Virus record (IMG/VR): IMGVR_UViG_2526164666_000018
Coordinates: 1 to 8,653 of that record
DNA from: a virus
Lineage: Duplodnaviria > Heunggongvirae > Uroviricota > Caudoviricetes
DNA: 8,653 bases
Reading direction: 5' to 3' (one strand)
In this document: positions 1,007 to 7,338 of the stretch, piece after piece
Layout of the letters: every line of letters begins with the position of its first letter
How positions within the stretch are numbered: the stretch's first letter is position 1
Notes under the pieces: model-generated
Seen by the model: only the letters and a program-made list of their open reading frames with translations
What the model was told of the DNA's origin: nothing
The model's database searches: none
Translations under genes and position numbers: made by a program

Positions 1007-1558
1007 ATGACTCAAAACTATGAACTGATTGTGAAAGGGATCCGCAATTTTGAGAATAAAGTTACGGTAACCTTAGCGTTACGGGACAAAAAACGCTTTG
1101 ACGGTGAAATTTTTGACCTGGACATCTCGCTGGACCGTGTTGAAGGTGCCGCGCTGGAGTTTTATGAGGCAGCAGCCAGAAGGAGCATCAGACAGGTCTT
1201 CCTGGATGTTGCTGCCGGGTTATGTGAAGGGGGTGAGCAGTCGCCGGAAAAGCGCCCCATAATTTTAGAGGCGCAGAATGTGTGGATAACCTACAAAGGA
1301 AAGCTACCGGGAAGAATTACTGGTTCTCTGAAGACTCCACCGGCGGCATTGCGGTCAGAAAAAGACGATATTGAATCGCCCATTGAAAAACTGGAGGGCA
1401 GAGTCGCTGATCTGAATAAAAAATTGTCGGTGCTGATCCCTTCTGAAGATGAAAAAAAACGCCGCGATGAGCAGTTTGCGGCGTTTTACGATTATTGCAT
1501 TGAGGTTACTCGCAGGAATTTTGTGAAGATTTTTGAGGAGGGTAAATCTCTTCAGTAA
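1007..1558 (+). CDS. Hypothetical 183-aa soluble protein inserted between holin and endolysin; function unknown
   Basis: ATG at 1007 lies 4 nt after the S stop (1000-1002) with GGGGAGAG upstream, suggesting translational coupling to S within the late operon. No TM segment and no recognisable catalytic motif; the C-terminal half is charged and helical-looking (IEKLEGRVADLNKKLSVLI). Confidence 0.7.
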   Translation: MTQNYELIVKGIRNFENKVTVTLALRDKKRFDGEIFDLDISLDRVEGAALEFYEAAARRSIRQVFLDVAAGLCEGGEQSPEKRPIILEAQNVWITYKGKLPGRITGSLKTPPAALRSEKDDIESPIEKLEGRVADLNKKLSVLIPSEDEKKRRDEQFAAFYDYCIEVTRRNFVKIFEEGKSLQ

Positions 1559-1768
1559 GCTTAATGGCGGACTCTGCAATTAATTCTGGAAGGTCCGCAA
1601 GGTCATCTGTCAGTGGGAATGATGAAAAATCGGCGGCAGTTCTGTTAAGAATTGTTTTAACGAACTCCTTTTCATTATCCGGCAACAAGTTGATTAGAGC
1701 CACGACAGCTTGCCTGAGTGCGATTAAATCAGCAAAAGTTTGTTTTGGTAGATTTGGATAATCCATAG
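1506..1768 (-). CDS. Hypothetical 87-aa acidic protein, antisense to and overlapping the 3' end of the 183-aa gene
   Basis: Minus-strand ATG at 1766-1768 preceded by AGAGGTGA (reverse complement of 1774-1781) at good spacing. Product begins MDYPNLPKQTFADLIALRQ and ends QNSCE, stop at 1506-1508. The track's longer 1506..1991 version would run into R and lacks this RBS. Confidence 0.45.
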
Positions 1769-1877
1769 TCACCTCTGTGTTTATCAGATTGACATACCCT
1801 GGCCAGTGCCCACCACTGGCGGGGTGAAGGCTTAACATATCCAGGGATTCGGAACCGATAAATCCTGATAAATATCC

Positions 1878-2411
1878 ATGAACGCAAAAATCAAATACGG
1901 CCTGTCGGCTGCCGTTCTGGCGCTGATTGGTGCAGGGGCGTCTGCGCCTGAAATCCTCGACCAGTTTCTGGATGAAAAGGAAGGTAACCACACCACGGCA
2001 TACCGTGATGGTGCGGGTATCTGGACCATCTGCCGTGGAGCCACCCGGGTGGATGGTAAGCCTGTTATTCCTGGCATGAAACTGACGAAGGAAAAATGCG
2101 ACCAGGTTAACGCTATTGAACGTGATAAGGCGCTGGCATGGGTGGAGAAAAACATCCGGGTGCCGCTGACCGAACCCCAGAAAGCGGGGATCGCGTCATT
2201 CTGTCCGTACAACATTGGCCCCGGTAAGTGCTTCCCGTCGACGTTTTATAAACGAATTAATGCAGGCGATCGAAAAGGTGCCTGTGAGGCGATTCGCTGG
2301 TGGATTAAGGACGGTGGCAGAGACTGCCGTATCCGTTCAAATAATTGCTACGGTCAGGTCTCACGGCGTGACCAGGAGAGCGCGCTGGCGTGCTGGGACA
2401 TCGACAGATAG
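1878..2411 (+). CDS. R: SAR (signal-anchor-release) endolysin, T4-lysozyme-like muramidase, Stx-phage R type
   Basis: 177 aa. N-terminal Gly/Ala-rich weakly hydrophobic segment (YGLSAAVLALIGAGASA) typical of SAR domains, followed by an E-x8-D-x5-T catalytic pattern (EGNHTTAYRDGAGIWT). Closely resembles the R endolysin of Stx2 phages as I recall it. Pairs with the pinholin. Confidence 0.9.
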   Translation: MNAKIKYGLSAAVLALIGAGASAPEILDQFLDEKEGNHTTAYRDGAGIWTICRGATRVDGKPVIPGMKLTKEKCDQVNAIERDKALAWVEKNIRVPLTEPQKAGIASFCPYNIGPGKCFPSTFYKRINAGDRKGACEAIRWWIKDGGRDCRIRSNNCYGQVSRRDQESALACWDIDR

Positions 2412-2502
2412 CAGAATATTTTCCTGAAAAATGACGTTGGCCAACGCGGGTGGATAACACGAAATCCTGAAAACTGGTAAAACCTAAGTGAATAAAAGTA
2501 AA

Positions 2503-2540
2503 AACCCCGTTTGTTGGCAGCAAGCGGGGTTTTGTGTTTT
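2503..2540. terminator. Candidate hairpin/terminator in the R-Rz spacer, plausible on either strand
   Basis: Stem AACCCCG (2503-2509) pairs with CGGGGTT (2525-2531) across a 15-nt loop, followed on + by TTGTGTTTT and preceded by AAAA (a U-run on the minus strand). The large loop lowers confidence. Confidence 0.4.
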
Positions 2541-2746
2541 CTGACCTTGAGCAAGGCAAGGGAGAAATTATGGGTAGGGAGGTACTTTCCCTGTGAGGAA
2601 GTATAAAAGATTCTTTCTGAGGTTGTCCATTATGAAAGGCATTGAAGTGGAGACGCCAGCCAGTCTGGATTTAACAAGAGCGGCAGCTTTTGCCATTCGT
2701 ATTGTGGCCATTGCTGTTCTGGTCTGGGCAATCCGTTGGTGGTGAT

Positions 2747-3214
2747 ATGAACCGTGTTCTGTGCGTGGTTATCATTGTCCTGCTGGTGGCCTGTGGTGCG
2801 CTTAGTCTGGGGCTGAATCATTACCGTGATCACGCCATCATCTACAAAGAGCAGCGCGATAAAAAAGCCAGTGAGCTGGAGCTGGCGAACGCGACAATTA
2901 CTGATATGCAGATACGCCAGCGTGATGTCGCTGCACTTGATGCCAGATACTCGAGGGAATTAGCCGATGCGAGAGCTGAAAATGAAACTCTGCGTGCTGA
3001 TGTTGCCGCTGGTCGTAAGCGCCTGCGGATCAACGCCACCTGCTCCGGTACCGTGCGTGAAGCCACCGGCACCTCCGGCGTGGATAATGCAACCGGCCCC
3101 CGACTGGCAGACACCGCTGAACGGGATTATTTCATCCTCAGAGAACGGCTGATGGCAATGCAGAAGCAACTGGAAGGAGCACAGGAATATATCCGTACCC
3201 AGTGTATACCGTGA
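2747..3214 (+). CDS. Rz: Rz i-spanin (inner-membrane spanin subunit)
   Basis: Translation from the ATG at 2747 (MNRVLCVVIIVLLVACGALSLGLNHYRDHAIIYKEQRDK...) has an N-terminal TM helix and coiled-coil periplasmic domain and is highly similar to lambda Rz. The track ORF 2690..3214 has an N-terminal extension not matching Rz. Confidence 0.9.
   Translation: MNRVLCVVIIVLLVACGALSLGLNHYRDHAIIYKEQRDKKASELELANATITDMQIRQRDVAALDARYSRELADARAENETLRADVAAGRKRLRINATCSGTVREATGTSGVDNATGPRLADTAERDYFILRERLMAMQKQLEGAQEYIRTQCIP
2967..3152 (+). CDS. Rz1: Rz1 o-spanin lipoprotein, embedded in the +1 frame within Rz
   Basis: 61 aa with a lipobox (LPLVVSAC) and a proline-rich mature part (PPAPVPCVKPPAPPAWIMQPAPDWQTPLNGII), fully embedded in Rz as in lambda. 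An alternative start is the Met at 2982. Confidence 0.85.
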   Translation: MRELKMKLCVLMLPLVVSACGSTPPAPVPCVKPPAPPAWIMQPAPDWQTPLNGIISSSENG

Positions 3215-3679
3215 TATTTTGTTATGAAGGTGTTACTGGTAACGTTAAGGTAATTTAACAAAGAGTCAGTTCCGGACTTTATAGTGTGCTCAGTTCATGG
3301 CCAAAAACGATTTCTGTGATAAATATTTTGAATATTATTTACAGGTAAATGGAGTGGGGCACATGGATAGAAATATTACAATAGAGAATGAAGTATATGC
3401 CCGTATTGTATGGGCAGAGAAGGCAAAAACACGGTAATTCCGTGTGTTGCCATGATACCTGATTGGCAGAATAGTTGTTTGGTTTTGAGTATATAGTCAG
3501 CGTTTTTTGTTCAGTAATTGCTCCCTCAAAAAATAATAAAACAAGGTGATTATTTTTGTTTATTATTTAGTTTTTTTTGTGTGTTGTTTTATTGTTTTTG
3601 CGTGGTTTGTTTTTTATTGTTATTTCATTAAGGGAAGGTAAATTCAGGATGGCAGTCTGTAGATAATCGGAGGTCACTT

Positions 3680-3994
3680 ATGCTACATGATCACGTGGCA
3701 GAATGTCTGGAGAAAAAAGGACTGTACCGGAGAGCAGCTGAACGATGGGCAAAAGTGATGGTACAGCTAAGTGATGACCAGAAAAGAAAAGTGGCGGCAC
3801 AGAAACGAGCAGAGTGTTTGCGTAAGGCGCGCCGGACTCCGGTTTCACCGGTGAACCTGACCGAAATAAAACAAGCGGTCAACAGACTACATTCTGAGTT
3901 GGGAATGGGATTTGAAGAGCGGCGGGTATTCCGACGATATAAAGGGACAGGAGAACAGAATACGTCCGGAAACGCGCGGTCAAAAAAATGCTAA
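3680..3994 (+). CDS. Small basic 104-aa protein, tentatively a PerC-family (Pch-like) transcriptional regulator; moron-type cargo
   Basis: GGAGGT at 3669-3674 lies 5 nt before the ATG. The N-terminal motif AECLEKKGLYRRAAERW resembles what I remember of PerC/Pch regulators from EPEC/EHEC; this assignment is from memory and unverified. The gene is flanked by AT-rich DNA and followed by a terminator. Confidence 0.6.
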   Translation: MLHDHVAECLEKKGLYRRAAERWAKVMVQLSDDQKRKVAAQKRAECLRKARRTPVSPVNLTEIKQAVNRLHSELGMGFEERRVFRRYKGTGEQNTSGNARSKKC

Positions 3995-4030
3995 AAAATA
4001 TCTGAGAGAGTTATTGCCTGTTACCATAAG

Positions 4031-4057
4031 AAAAAGCGACTTTAGTGGTCGCTTTTT
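4031..4057. terminator. Bidirectional rho-independent terminator between convergent genes
   Basis: Perfect 10-bp palindrome AAAAAGCGAC (4031-4040) / GTCGCTTTTT (4048-4057) with a 7-nt loop, so a GC stem flanked by A and T tracts, sitting between the ends of the 3680..3994 (+) and 4076..4300 (-) ORFs. Confidence 0.6.
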
Positions 4058-4075
4058 GTGTCATATATAAGTCGT

Positions 4076-4300
4076 TTAAGTAAACCTGTCTGAACAGGTG
4101 CTCTGGTCGTGTTTGTCTTTGTTGGGTACAAATTGAGAATATTTTTCATTAATTAATCTTCTTCTGCAGGCTTCAATAACCCACGCTGAAAAATTACCTG
4201 AACCTTTCAGGTCAAGAGCGATGTTAATTTGTTCAATTATCTGGTTTGGAAATCGGATGTTGCGGGTTGTTGTTCTGCGGGTTCTGTTCTTTGATGACAT
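4076..4300 (-). CDS. Small 74-aa basic protein with a ribbon-helix-helix-like pattern (possibly YlcI/DUF3950-like); putative DNA-binding regulator
   Basis: Minus-strand ORF MSSKNRTRRTTTRNIRFPNQIIEQINIALDLKGSGNFSAWVIEACRRRL...: a basic N-terminus, a short beta-strand-like segment then helices, as in Arc/CopG RHH proteins. Family assignment is from memory only. The RBS is weak. Confidence 0.5.
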   Translation of the reverse strand: MSSKNRTRRTTTRNIRFPNQIIEQINIALDLKGSGNFSAWVIEACRRRLINEKYSQFVPNKDKHDQSTCSDRFT

Positions 4301-4469
4301 AATGTTGCCCCGTATTCAGTGTTGCTGATTTGTATTATCTGAAGTTGCTTTTACGCTAATTTGATGCAGATCAATTAATACGATACCTGCGTAATAATTG
4401 ATTATTTCTCGTGGTTTGATGGCGTACACACATGTCGTGATAAACCTCATGTAGATGATAATTATTATC

Positions 4470-4690
4470 ATTTTCGTGGGTCCTTTCCGGCGATCCGACA
4501 GGTTACGGGGCGGCGACCTCGCGGGTTTTCGCTATTTATGAAAATTTTCCGGGGAAAATCATGTCGGTACTTCTCGAACATAACTATTTGTTTTTCTAAT
4601 ATCGAATCCGTAAAGGTCCGACATGAAAACGCCTGAAAAAGTCATTTTCGGGCACTTTCATGTCGGACCCTGTATTTGTTGTGAGACTGT
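4470..4690 (+). other. cos: Phage cohesive-end site cos (cosQ-cosN-cosB); the 12-nt cohesive end GGGCGGCGACCT is at 4508-4519
   Basis: tcgtgggtcctttccggcgatccgacaggttacg|GGGCGGCGACCT|cgcgggttttcgctatttatgaaaattttccgg matches the lambda right-end/left-end junction almost base for base (from memory). Downstream are three CATGTCGG-type repeats at about 4556-4571, 4614-4632 (inverted) and 4650-4665, taken as cosB R elements, immediately upstream of Nu1. Confidence 0.85.

Positions 4691-5213: not shown

Positions 5214-5239
<26 letters not shown>
4694..5239 (+). CDS. nu1: Terminase small subunit (gpNu1-like)
   Basis: 181 aa. From about residue 55 onward (IENEKLR...[59 protein letters not shown]...[12 protein letters not shown]) it is near-identical to lambda Nu1 as I recall it; the N-terminal ~50 aa DNA-binding region differs. 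It sits immediately downstream of cos and overlaps the start of A. Confidence 0.95.

Positions 5240-7338
<2,099 letters not shown>

What the first reader, a model, noticed from the sequence alone, without database searches (positions are those of the whole stretch)
3215..4500. AT-rich moron-like island between Rz and cos, with a putative PerC-like regulator and a convergent RHH-like gene
In lambda this interval holds bor; no bor-like lipoprotein ORF is present here. Instead there are two convergent small genes (3680..3994 + and 4076..4300 -) sharing a perfect bidirectional terminator, in DNA visibly more AT-rich than the flanking Rz and Nu1 genes. The + gene has an N-terminal motif (LEKKGLYRRAAERW) that I associate with PerC/Pch virulence regulators of EPEC/EHEC; the - gene looks like a ribbon-helix-helix DNA binder. 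A prophage-borne regulator pair here could control host or prophage genes in the lysogen.
Basis: partly seen in the sequence, partly recalled or inferred. Interest (0 to 1): 0.6.

Follow-up and report, generated by a model that had tools for sequence, protein, structure and literature searches.

The report
Known EHEC pch virulence-regulator cassette
This stretch of a lambda-like E. coli prophage carries pch, a well-studied gene that switches on the gut-attachment machinery of enterohaemorrhagic E. coli, next to a small conserved phage gene of unknown function, so the finding is correct but already known.

Summary
ORFs 3680-3994(+) and 4076-4300(-) exist and converge on a perfect 10-bp inverted repeat (4031-4057). 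The interval is 39% GC against 45-59% elsewhere in the window.

The + gene matches Pfam PerC (E=3.8e-44). It is 100% identical over 104 aa to PchA (ECs_1091) of E. coli O157:H7 Sakai, a characterised anti-H-NS activator of the LEE1/ler promoter. The whole interval is 100% identical in many STEC genomes, where it is annotated 'PerC family transcriptional regulator | YlcI/YnfO family protein'.

The - gene is DUF3950/YlcI-YnfO (E=1.3e-17). It is probably ribbon-helix-helix: several weak lines of evidence agree, but none is significant.

The two genes are not a functional pair. YlcI is lambdoid backbone: lambda has an unannotated 64-aa copy at 48109-48303, and K-12 DLP12 has ylcI in the same place. 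Its N-terminal part is in 3804 of 5426 complete E. coli genomes. The pch cassette is in 673.

Against lambda, the segment 3193-4152 replaces bor and two ORFs. Its right joint falls inside ylcI near codon 50, which gives YlcI a cassette-specific tail.

Verdict: already known, low interest. The only open point is what YlcI does.

The parts
3193..4152 (.). pch cargo cassette: the segment that replaces lambda's bor / p78 / p79 region
   Evidence: Homology to lambda stops at 3192 (end of Rz) and resumes at 4153. The core 3440-4060 is in 673 of 5426 complete E. coli genomes (1881 places, median 3 copies). The right-end piece 4058-4152 is also in 673 genomes, 1855 places.
3215..3679 (+). AT-rich non-coding leader/regulatory region of pch, including the T-rich tract 3500-3640
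   Evidence: 33.3% GC overall and 25.5% in 3500-3640. 3520-3660 is the most divergent part between the window and the A25 allele. The only 9/12 sigma-70-like site is at 3447-3475, and such sites are no more frequent than in shuffles. The regulatory role is inferred from the literature on pchA (LrhA, H-NS) and was not mapped here.
3297..3437 (+). 46-aa ORF of doubtful reality inside the leader
   Evidence: Full-length hit to phrog_2157, function unknown. Not annotated by PGAP in identical genomes. No Shine-Dalgarno upstream (sequence). Found only with the pch cassette in phage records.
3665..3683 (+). Shine-Dalgarno (GGAGG, 3669-3673) and start codon of pch
   Evidence: Read from the sequence. 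Its best intramolecular partner lies within the CDS at 3820-3844.
3680..3994 (+). pch gene (group 1 Pch, PchA-identical), PerC family
   Evidence: Pfam PF06069 E=3.8e-44. 104/104 identical to Sakai ECs_1091 PchA. UniRef name 'PchABC family transcriptional regulator'.
3820..3844 (+). Predicted anti-SD/anti-AUG segment within the pch CDS
   Evidence: Best duplex partner of 3660-3684 in the CDS, -20.0 kcal/mol against -15.9 for the next best. This fits the cis anti-SD described for pchA mRNA (review PMC7769764). Both substitutions in the A25 allele within these helices (C3668T, C3839T) keep wobble pairs. Whether this is the published site was not verified.
4031..4057 (.). Bidirectional terminator-like hairpin shared by pch and ylcI
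   Evidence: 10-nt arms, 100% complementary. Fold z-scores -3.7 and -3.9. 100% conserved in the divergent A25 allele.
4076..4300 (-). ylcI/ynfO-family gene (DUF3950), 74 aa. The N-terminal 49 aa (4153-4300) are conserved backbone; the C-terminal tail (4076-4152) is cassette-specific.
   Evidence: Pfam DUF3950 E=1.3e-17. NCBIfam NF041551. 88.7% identical to lambda/K-12 YlcI over residues 1-53. Against lambda there are 14 synonymous and 8 non-synonymous-codon nucleotide differences in codons 1-50. Tails are hypervariable across the family.
4301..4507 (.). cos-proximal spacer shared with the right end of lambda (up to the cosN nick)
   Evidence: Aligned to lambda 48304-48502.
4508..4519 (+). cosN 12-nt cohesive end, GGGCGGCGACCT
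   Evidence: Read from the sequence. The lambda genome ends exactly at 4507 in the alignment.

Best explanation
The interval is the cargo ('moron') slot of a lambda-like prophage of Shiga-toxin-producing/attaching-effacing E. coli. It lies between the lysis genes Rz/Rz1 and cos. In place of lambda's bor-ybcV-ybcW genes it holds the well-known pch cassette.

The cassette consists of an AT-rich leader, a 104-aa PerC-family gene identical to PchA, and a hairpin terminator.

Published work on this exact protein says that Pch binds the LEE1 (ler) promoter and other H-NS-silenced loci and displaces H-NS/StpA. This de-represses the type III secretion island. The same literature says pch is activated by LrhA and by nutritional signals, that its translation is held back by an anti-Shine-Dalgarno segment in its own coding region which the sRNA DicF relieves, and that it is strongly induced together with the prophage late genes on SOS induction.

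The convergent 74-aa gene is not part of that cargo. It is the lambdoid backbone gene ylcI/ynfO, a small, probably ribbon-helix-helix DNA-binding protein of untested function that sits immediately left of cos or the terminase genes in lambda, DLP12 and thousands of prophages. The recombination joint of the pch cassette lies inside it at about codon 50, so the cassette supplies its last 25 codons and the shared terminator.

Shown here: the identities, boundaries, distribution and hairpin. Taken from the literature: Pch function and regulation. Inferred: the YlcI fold and any role for YlcI.
For: - PerC Pfam hit, E=3.8e-44.
- 100% identity to Sakai PchA (locus).
- Interval 100% identical in many STEC genomes and annotated accordingly.
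- Exact protein named PchABC family and seen on at least 1000 contigs.
- Pch mechanism and role: PMC4764244.
- Pch groups and induction by SMX-TM/SOS: PMC6265319.
- LrhA control: PMC4456613 and PMC13012123.
- Anti-SD/DicF: PMC7769764, with a matching predicted SD:CDS helix.
- Boundaries against lambda, K-12 DLP12 and the A25 prophage.
- Distribution: pch core in 673 genomes, ylcI tail in 673 genomes, ylcI N-terminal part in 3804 genomes.
- YlcI is under protein-level constraint.
- ylcI is transcribed convergently with the slot gene ybcW in K-12 RNA-seq: PMC12288877 Table 1.
Against: - Nothing contradicts the identification.
- No transcription start site for pch or ylcI was mapped here, and consensus promoter matches are no more frequent than in shuffles.
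- The minimum-energy fold of the pch leader is not unusually stable, z -1.09.
- Every RHH indicator is individually below significance, and Foldseek against the PDB found nothing.
- This copy sits in a window with two homopolymer frameshifts in head genes, so the prophage may be defective. That does not bear on pch, which is intact.
Confidence: 0.9

Rival explanations
1. pch and the convergent RHH-like gene form a functional two-gene regulatory module. For example, YlcI might repress pch or act as its partner, or the convergent transcripts might silence each other as an excludon.
For: - The genes are 81 bp apart, convergent, and share one hairpin.
- The 74-aa tail variant of ylcI is found in exactly the pch-bearing genomes.
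- The two genes stay together next to a different packaging module in strain A25.
- ybcW-ylcI in K-12 is listed as a convergent excludon.
Against: - The conserved, presumably DNA-binding part of YlcI occurs in 3804 genomes against 673 for pch.
- YlcI is present with bor/ybcV/ybcW instead of pch in lambda and DLP12.
- In Sakai the pchA locus has ylcI disrupted: the homology ends at the IS629 copy at window position 4157. Yet pchA is the functional reference copy in the literature.
- The tail linkage is explained simply by the recombination joint lying inside ylcI.
Confidence: 0.07
2. The 74-aa ORF is not a real gene. Its conservation reflects a DNA-level function of the cos-proximal region (packaging termination, cosQ), and the ORF is incidental.
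For: - It lies within 210 bp of cosN, in DNA conserved with lambda.
- It is unannotated in the reference lambda record.
- No promoter was found.
Against: - Differences from lambda in codons 1-50 are mostly synonymous: 12 codons with silent changes against 5 with conservative replacements.
- The family profile finds relatives at 30-45% identity that keep the same beta-alpha-alpha pattern.
- The gene occurs next to non-lambda packaging modules: HNH plus a different terminase in A25, and Terminase_2 in P0253.
- ylcI is transcribed in K-12.
Confidence: 0.04
3. This particular pch copy is an inert remnant in a decaying prophage and contributes nothing to regulation.
For: - The window has +1 and -1 homopolymer frameshifts in the terminase large subunit and gpW relative to its closest relatives.
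- Strains carry a median of 3 copies, so copies may be redundant.
Against: - The pch ORF, leader and terminator are 100% identical to copies in hundreds of genomes and to characterised PchA.
- Prophage morphogenesis defects do not affect a lysogen-expressed cargo gene.
- The indels sit in A-runs and may be sequencing errors.
Confidence: 0.05

Closest known systems
PchA/PchB/PchC (group 1 Pch, 'PerC1') of EHEC O157:H7
   Same: 104 aa and 100% identical to Sakai PchA, ECs_1091. It lies on a lambdoid prophage downstream of the lysis genes. The annotation is the same in identical STEC loci.
   Different: Nothing at the protein level. In Sakai Sp4 the locus is rearranged and the downstream ylcI is interrupted at the IS629 copy. 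Here the Rz-pch-ylcI-cos-Nu1 order is intact. Which lettered paralogue (A, B or C) this locus corresponds to in its own strain was not determined.
PerC of the EPEC EAF plasmid (perABC operon)
   Same: Same Pfam family, PF06069, matched over the full profile 1-89/90. By the literature it has the same target, the LEE1 promoter.
   Different: PerC is plasmid-borne and sits in an operon with perA and perB. Here the gene is monocistronic prophage cargo with its own leader and terminator.
YlcI (DLP12) / YnfO (Qin) of E. coli K-12 and the unannotated 64-aa ORF of phage lambda (48109-48303, complement)
   Same: DUF3950 / NF041551 family. Same position and orientation, just left of cos/Nu1 (nohD), and convergent with the last gene of the cargo slot. 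88.7% identical over residues 1-53.
   Different: The C-terminal tail differs: 25 residues here against 15 in lambda/K-12, and the two tails are unrelated in sequence. The joint falls at about codon 50.
Ribbon-helix-helix (Arc/MetJ/CopG) DNA-binding domains, e.g. ParD/TacA/HicB antitoxin DNA-binding domains
   Same: The sequence follows the pattern hydrophobic-R-hydrophobic-P, helix, G-x-x-(N/S)-F-S, helix. AF2 predicts an extended segment followed by two helices. The weak structural and profile hits are nearly all RHH proteins, and they align in register.
   Different: No statistically significant match. The beta-strand is not modelled in a monomer. No adjacent toxin gene. Dimerisation and DNA binding are untested.
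lambda bor / DLP12 borD-ybcV-ybcW cargo slot
   Same: Same genomic slot between Rz/Rz1 and ylcI-cos.
   Different: The content is entirely different. No Bor, YbcV or YbcW homologue is present.

Membership tests
PerC family (Pfam PF06069) | Profile match above the curated gathering score over the full domain | tested here: met
   149.3 bits against a cutoff of 22.6, E=3.8e-44, profile positions 1-89 of 90. Also phrog_994, E=1.4e-45, and PHROG 'transcriptional activator' families.
Group 1 Pch (PchA/B/C) of EHEC | About 104-aa protein, near-identical to the experimentally active PchA/B/C rather than to PchD/PchE | tested here: met
   104/104 identical to Sakai ECs_1091 'transcriptional regulator PchA'. 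The grouping by size and similarity is described in PMC6265319.
Group 1 Pch (PchA/B/C) of EHEC | Activates the LEE1/ler promoter by counteracting H-NS | not testable with these tools
   Shown for the identical protein in PMC4764244.
Group 1 Pch (PchA/B/C) of EHEC | Encoded on a lambdoid prophage | tested here: met
   Flanked by holin, lysozyme and Rz/Rz1 upstream and by cos, Nu1, terminase A, W and portal downstream.
DUF3950 / YlcI-YnfO family | Profile match above the curated cutoffs | tested here: met
   Pfam PF13132: 63.8 bits against a cutoff of 25. NCBIfam NF041551: 34.5 bits against a cutoff of 30. phrog_949, E=6.4e-31.
DUF3950 / YlcI-YnfO family | Position immediately upstream of cos / small terminase, on the opposite strand | tested here: met
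   Same arrangement in lambda, K-12 DLP12 and strain A25.
Ribbon-helix-helix superfamily | Significant sequence or profile similarity to an established RHH family | tested here: inconclusive
   Best results: CopG-family RHH 9kkd, E=0.09; PHROG HicB-like, E=0.0099; Pfam RHH_6, E=0.092, for one family member; hhalign to Arc, P=0.0078, probability 5%. All align in the expected register, but none is significant.
Ribbon-helix-helix superfamily | Beta-alpha-alpha fold | tested here: inconclusive
Ribbon-helix-helix superfamily | Homodimer forming an antiparallel beta-ribbon that binds the DNA major groove | not testable with these tools
   Only monomer prediction was available, and no binding assay.
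Phage moron (autonomous cargo cassette) | Absent from otherwise collinear related phages; sharp homology boundaries | tested here: met
   Lambda homology breaks at 3192 and 4153. DLP12 and lambda carry bor/ybcV/ybcW in the slot. The cassette is in 673 genomes against 3804 for the adjacent backbone.
Phage moron (autonomous cargo cassette) | Own terminator | tested here: met
   Perfect hairpin flanked by A and T tracts at 4031-4057. Its function is inferred.
Phage moron (autonomous cargo cassette) | Own promoter | tested here: inconclusive
   Only weak consensus matches, for example 3447-3475, and no more of them than in shuffles.
Lambda Bor lipoprotein | Bor-like ORF in the Rz-cos interval | tested here: not met
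   tblastn of lambda Bor against the window gave nothing better than E=1.8. No Pfam Bor hit.
Prophage anti-sRNAs (AgvB/AsxR) or any Rfam family | Covariance-model match, or the known location | tested here: not met
   No Rfam match at gathering thresholds in the whole window, and only chance-level hits at E up to 10. AgvB and AsxR lie 3' of PR', not here (PMC4104026).

The most novel reading that the evidence does not exclude
YlcI/YnfO is a ribbon-helix-helix DNA-binding protein that belongs to the lambda backbone itself and is unannotated in the reference lambda record. Its variable C-terminal tail is exchanged together with whatever cargo occupies the Rz-cos slot.

It could therefore be a so far unrecognised lambdoid regulator. 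It might gate expression of the adjacent cargo (here pch) through DNA binding or convergent-transcription interference, or it might act on cos or terminase. In that case it would link virulence-regulator output to prophage state.
Probability: 0.12. Interest if true: 0.45.

Novelty: already known. Interest (0 to 1): 0.14.

Why it matters
pch genes are master switches of EHEC attachment: they drive LEE type III secretion through ler. Recognising one in a raw window identifies the source as an attaching-effacing or Shiga-toxin-producing E. coli lineage with multi-copy prophage-borne virulence regulation. That is useful for annotation but is not new biology.

The one loose end with some value is YlcI/YnfO. 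It is present in about 70% of complete E. coli genomes and in lambda itself, next to cos. It is probably a DNA-binding protein, and it has no known function. The cargo-slot recombination joint runs through it.

Tried and rejected
- Antisense sRNA idea: I suspected the T-rich tract 3500-3640 might encode an antisense CA-rich sRNA such as AgvB (a GcvB sponge), ending at the minus-strand hairpin 3429-3445. Rfam gave nothing. Tree et al. place AgvB and AsxR 3' of PR'. The Pas sRNA preprint does not mention this locus. Dropped.
- Pasteurella phage Pmp7 tblastn hit labelled 'transcriptional repressor': the match is on the strand opposite the annotated gene, so it is spurious.
- Foldseek against the PDB with the first YlcI model: no hits.
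- phmmer of either protein against PDB sequences: nothing meaningful.
- Pfam scan of distant YlcI relatives for RHH families: only one marginal RHH_6 hit.
- Whole-leader minimum-energy fold of pch mRNA: not more stable than shuffles, z -1.09. I report only the local SD:CDS duplex scan.
- DicF-pch duplex prediction: this used a DicF sequence recalled from memory and gave implausible energies. It is not used as evidence.
- Literature searches for a mapped pchA transcription start site or LrhA site coordinates found no coordinates. Porter et al. 2005 (PMC543544) is not held.
- I did not determine which Sakai paralogue locus (pchB or pchC) is collinear with the window.
Full report
**Observation.** A perfect inverted repeat lies between them, AAAAAGCGAC / GTCGCTTTTT at 4031-4040 and 4048-4057, with a 7-nt loop. 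As RNA it folds on either strand much better than shuffled sequence: -14.7 kcal/mol (z -3.7) and -12.1 kcal/mol (z -3.9). The simple terminator scan missed it only because it absorbs the A and T tracts into the stem.

The interval 3215-4500 is 39.0% GC, whereas every other 1286-bp window in the sequence lies between 45.3% and 58.7% (profile). The low GC is not uniform. The pch coding region is 49.2% GC. The AT-rich parts are the 465-bp leader (33.3%; T-rich tract 3500-3640 at 25.5%), the intergenic spacer, the minus-strand gene (38.7%) and the spacer up to cos (38.6%).

Rz (Pfam E=1.2e-48) and Nu1 (E=5.9e-91) flank the interval. The lambda cohesive-end sequence GGGCGGCGACCT is at 4508-4519. 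No Bor, YbcV/p78 or YbcW/p79 homologue exists in the window.

**The plus-strand gene.** It matches Pfam PerC (PF06069) over the whole profile at E=3.8e-44, 149 bits against a gathering score of 22.6. It is identical at all 104 residues to ECs_1091, annotated 'transcriptional regulator PchA', in prophage Sp4 of E. coli O157:H7 Sakai. The exact sequence is named 'PchABC family transcriptional regulator' in UniRef and is recorded on at least 1000 contigs. The 1286-bp interval is 100% identical in many STEC genomes (O157:H7, O103, O145 and others), where PGAP annotates 'PerC family transcriptional regulator | YlcI/YnfO family protein'. This is therefore a group 1 pch gene, not merely a PerC-like one.

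**What Pch does (literature).** The following comes from the literature on the identical protein.
- EHEC carries five pch genes in three groups. Group 1 (pchA/B/C) is needed for full ler and espA expression and for adherence (PMC6265319; PMC4332760).
- Pch lacks homology to known DNA-binding proteins. It binds many chromosomal sites and activates the LEE1 promoter only when that promoter is silenced by H-NS/StpA/Hha/YdgT. It reduces H-NS occupancy in vivo and in vitro, so it is an anti-silencer (PMC4764244).
- LrhA activates pchA and pchB. Butyrate acting through Lrp and LeuO, and nitrogen status acting through NtrC, feed into the same pathway (PMC4456613, PMC13012123, PMC10714755).
- pch genes are among the regulators most strongly induced when prophages are induced by SMX-TM. 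This fits their position inside the late transcription unit.
- pchA translation is blocked by an anti-Shine-Dalgarno segment inside its own coding region, and the sRNA DicF relieves this block (review PMC7769764).

In the window, the best partner within the CDS for the SD/AUG region (3660-3684) is 3820-3844, at -20.0 kcal/mol against -15.9 for the runner-up. The pairing forms two helices, 3665-3672 with 3837-3844 and 3677-3683 with 3820-3826. The two substitutions that a divergent allele carries in these helices (C3668T, C3839T) both keep wobble pairs. I could not verify that this is the published site, and the global fold of the leader is not exceptional (z -1.09).

**The minus-strand gene.** It is a DUF3950 / YlcI-YnfO protein: Pfam E=1.3e-17, NCBIfam NF041551 above its cutoff and phrog_949 at E=6.4e-31. 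It is not cargo.
- Lambda has a 64-aa ORF at 48109-48303 on the complementary strand, unannotated in J02459. It is identical to K-12 YlcI.
- K-12 DLP12 shows the order rzpD/rzoD - borD - ybcV - ybcW - ylcI(-) - nohD. Lambda has the same genes in the same order.
- Between the window and lambda, codons 1-50 differ by 14 nucleotides in synonymous codon changes and 8 in replacement codons, and the replacements are conservative. That argues for selection on the protein rather than only on cos-proximal DNA.
- In K-12 RNA-seq the pair ybcW-ylcI is listed as convergently overlapping transcripts (PMC12288877), so ylcI is transcribed.
- The family is small: 189 clusters at 50% identity among 1.84 billion representative proteins. 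Its distant members keep the pattern K-x-I-R-F-P-x-x-L-I-E-x-I-E ... N-F-S-A-(W/F)-V-(I/V)-E-A.

**Is YlcI ribbon-helix-helix?** The indicators agree but are weak.
- AlphaFold2 gives an extended segment (residues 13-18) followed by helices 19-32 and 37-55. Mean pLDDT is 71, and about 85 in the core (an earlier model is).
- A family profile aligns in register to a CopG-family RHH chain at E=0.09.
- PHROGs gives a HicB-like hit at E=0.0099.
- One relative touches Pfam RHH_6 at E=0.092.
- hhalign places NIRFP on Arc's NLRWP with P=0.008 but a low probability.
- Foldseek found nothing.

I rate RHH as likely, about 0.8, but unproven.

**Boundaries and linkage.** Homology to lambda ends at 3192, the end of Rz, and resumes at 4153, inside ylcI at about codon 50. 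Three distribution searches define the units.
- The pch core 3440-4060 is in 673 of 5426 complete E. coli genomes, at 1881 places, with a median of 3 copies.
- The 95 bp that encode the YlcI tail plus spacer (4058-4152) are also in 673 genomes, at 1855 places.
- The conserved N-terminal part of ylcI (4153-4300) is in 3804 genomes, at 9013 places.

The cassette is therefore about 3193-4152, and it supplies the last 25 codons of YlcI. Across the family the tails are hypervariable in length and sequence while residues 1-49 are nearly invariant.

In a monkey isolate (A25) a pch allele 89% identical over the cassette core sits with the same ylcI next to an HNH endonuclease and an unrelated small terminase. 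There the homology stops exactly at the ylcI start codon, 4300. ylcI thus behaves as a junction gene between the cargo slot and packaging modules of several kinds. One relative is even called as a fusion with a Terminase_2 domain.

In Sakai Sp4 the homology to the window ends at 4157, where the annotated IS629 copy begins, so ylcI is truncated there. pchA at that locus is nevertheless the characterised reference copy. Together with the five-fold difference in distribution, this argues against a functional pch-YlcI pair.

The pch part is almost absent from deposited phage genomes. Only two fragments, from induced EDL933 material, match it. The YlcI part is found in 153 phage records.

**Verdict.** The corrections are as follows.
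- The regulator is exactly the known PchA-type protein.
- The 'island' ends inside ylcI at about 4152.
- ylcI and the DNA up to cos are ordinary lambdoid backbone.
- The two genes are not a pair.
- The RHH fold is probable rather than shown.

All of this is already known and already annotated in public genomes, so interest is low. The residual open question is what YlcI/YnfO does, given that it is widespread and present in lambda itself.

Noticed in passing
window 6929 and 7265 (also 4590 and 265): Compared with the closest complete genome (E. coli 2313, 99.8% identical), the window has an extra A in an A-run at 6929. This splits the terminase large subunit into 5214-6971 and 6925-7140. It also lacks an A in an A-run at 7265, which truncates gpW to 55 aa. 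There is a missing T at 4590 and a 6-bp in-frame deletion at 265 in the esterase gene. These are either homopolymer sequencing errors or real decay of the prophage.
   Followed up: partly
window 4559-4572, 4615-4639, 4645-4669: A 25-nt inverted repeat (88% complementary, 5-nt spacer) and a third copy of CATGTCGG lie between cosN and the Nu1 start. They are probably the cosB binding sites for the small terminase subunit. The sub-threshold Rfam 'miRNA' hits are this palindrome.
   Followed up: no
L003 2710-2904 (lambda J02459 48109-48303, complement): The reference lambda record has no feature for a 64-aa ORF that is 100% identical to E. coli K-12 YlcI.
   Followed up: yes
window 4076-4152 versus 4153-4300: The recombination joint of the cargo cassette lies inside ylcI at about codon 50. 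As a result the protein has a nearly invariant N-terminal 49 residues and module-specific, hypervariable C-terminal tails.
   Followed up: yes
L006 (E. coli A25) 1744-3624: A divergent pch allele, with the same ylcI, sits beside an HNH endonuclease and a different small/large terminase pair instead of lambda cos-Nu1-A. Homology to the window ends exactly at the ylcI start codon.
   Followed up: partly
window 3297-3437 (+) and 4316-4471 (-): Two small ORFs (46 and 51 aa) match PHROG families of unknown function over their full length (phrog_2157, phrog_9395), but PGAP does not annotate them in identical genomes. The first has no Shine-Dalgarno and occurs only with the pch cassette. They are probably over-called ORFs.
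   Followed up: partly
window 3429-3445: A hairpin, ACACGG-AATTA-CCGTGT, is followed by a T-run on the minus strand only, which makes it terminator-like for leftward transcription. It lies at the 3' end of the doubtful 46-aa ORF. One stem base differs in the A25 allele. No transcript is known to end there.
   Followed up: no
window 1007-1558: A 183-aa ORF with an N-terminal DUF1327/YdfR domain lies between the holin and lysozyme genes. In the near-identical genome this is annotated as an incomplete YdfR-family pseudogene, with an opposite-strand hypothetical gene overlapping it.
   Followed up: no
P0253 (metagenomic relative of YlcI): A 120-aa protein combines a DUF3950 domain (residues 19-47) with the N-terminal part of a Terminase_2 small-terminase domain (residues 67-119). 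This is either a true fusion or two adjacent genes called as one. Either way it links the family to packaging genes outside lambda.
   Followed up: no
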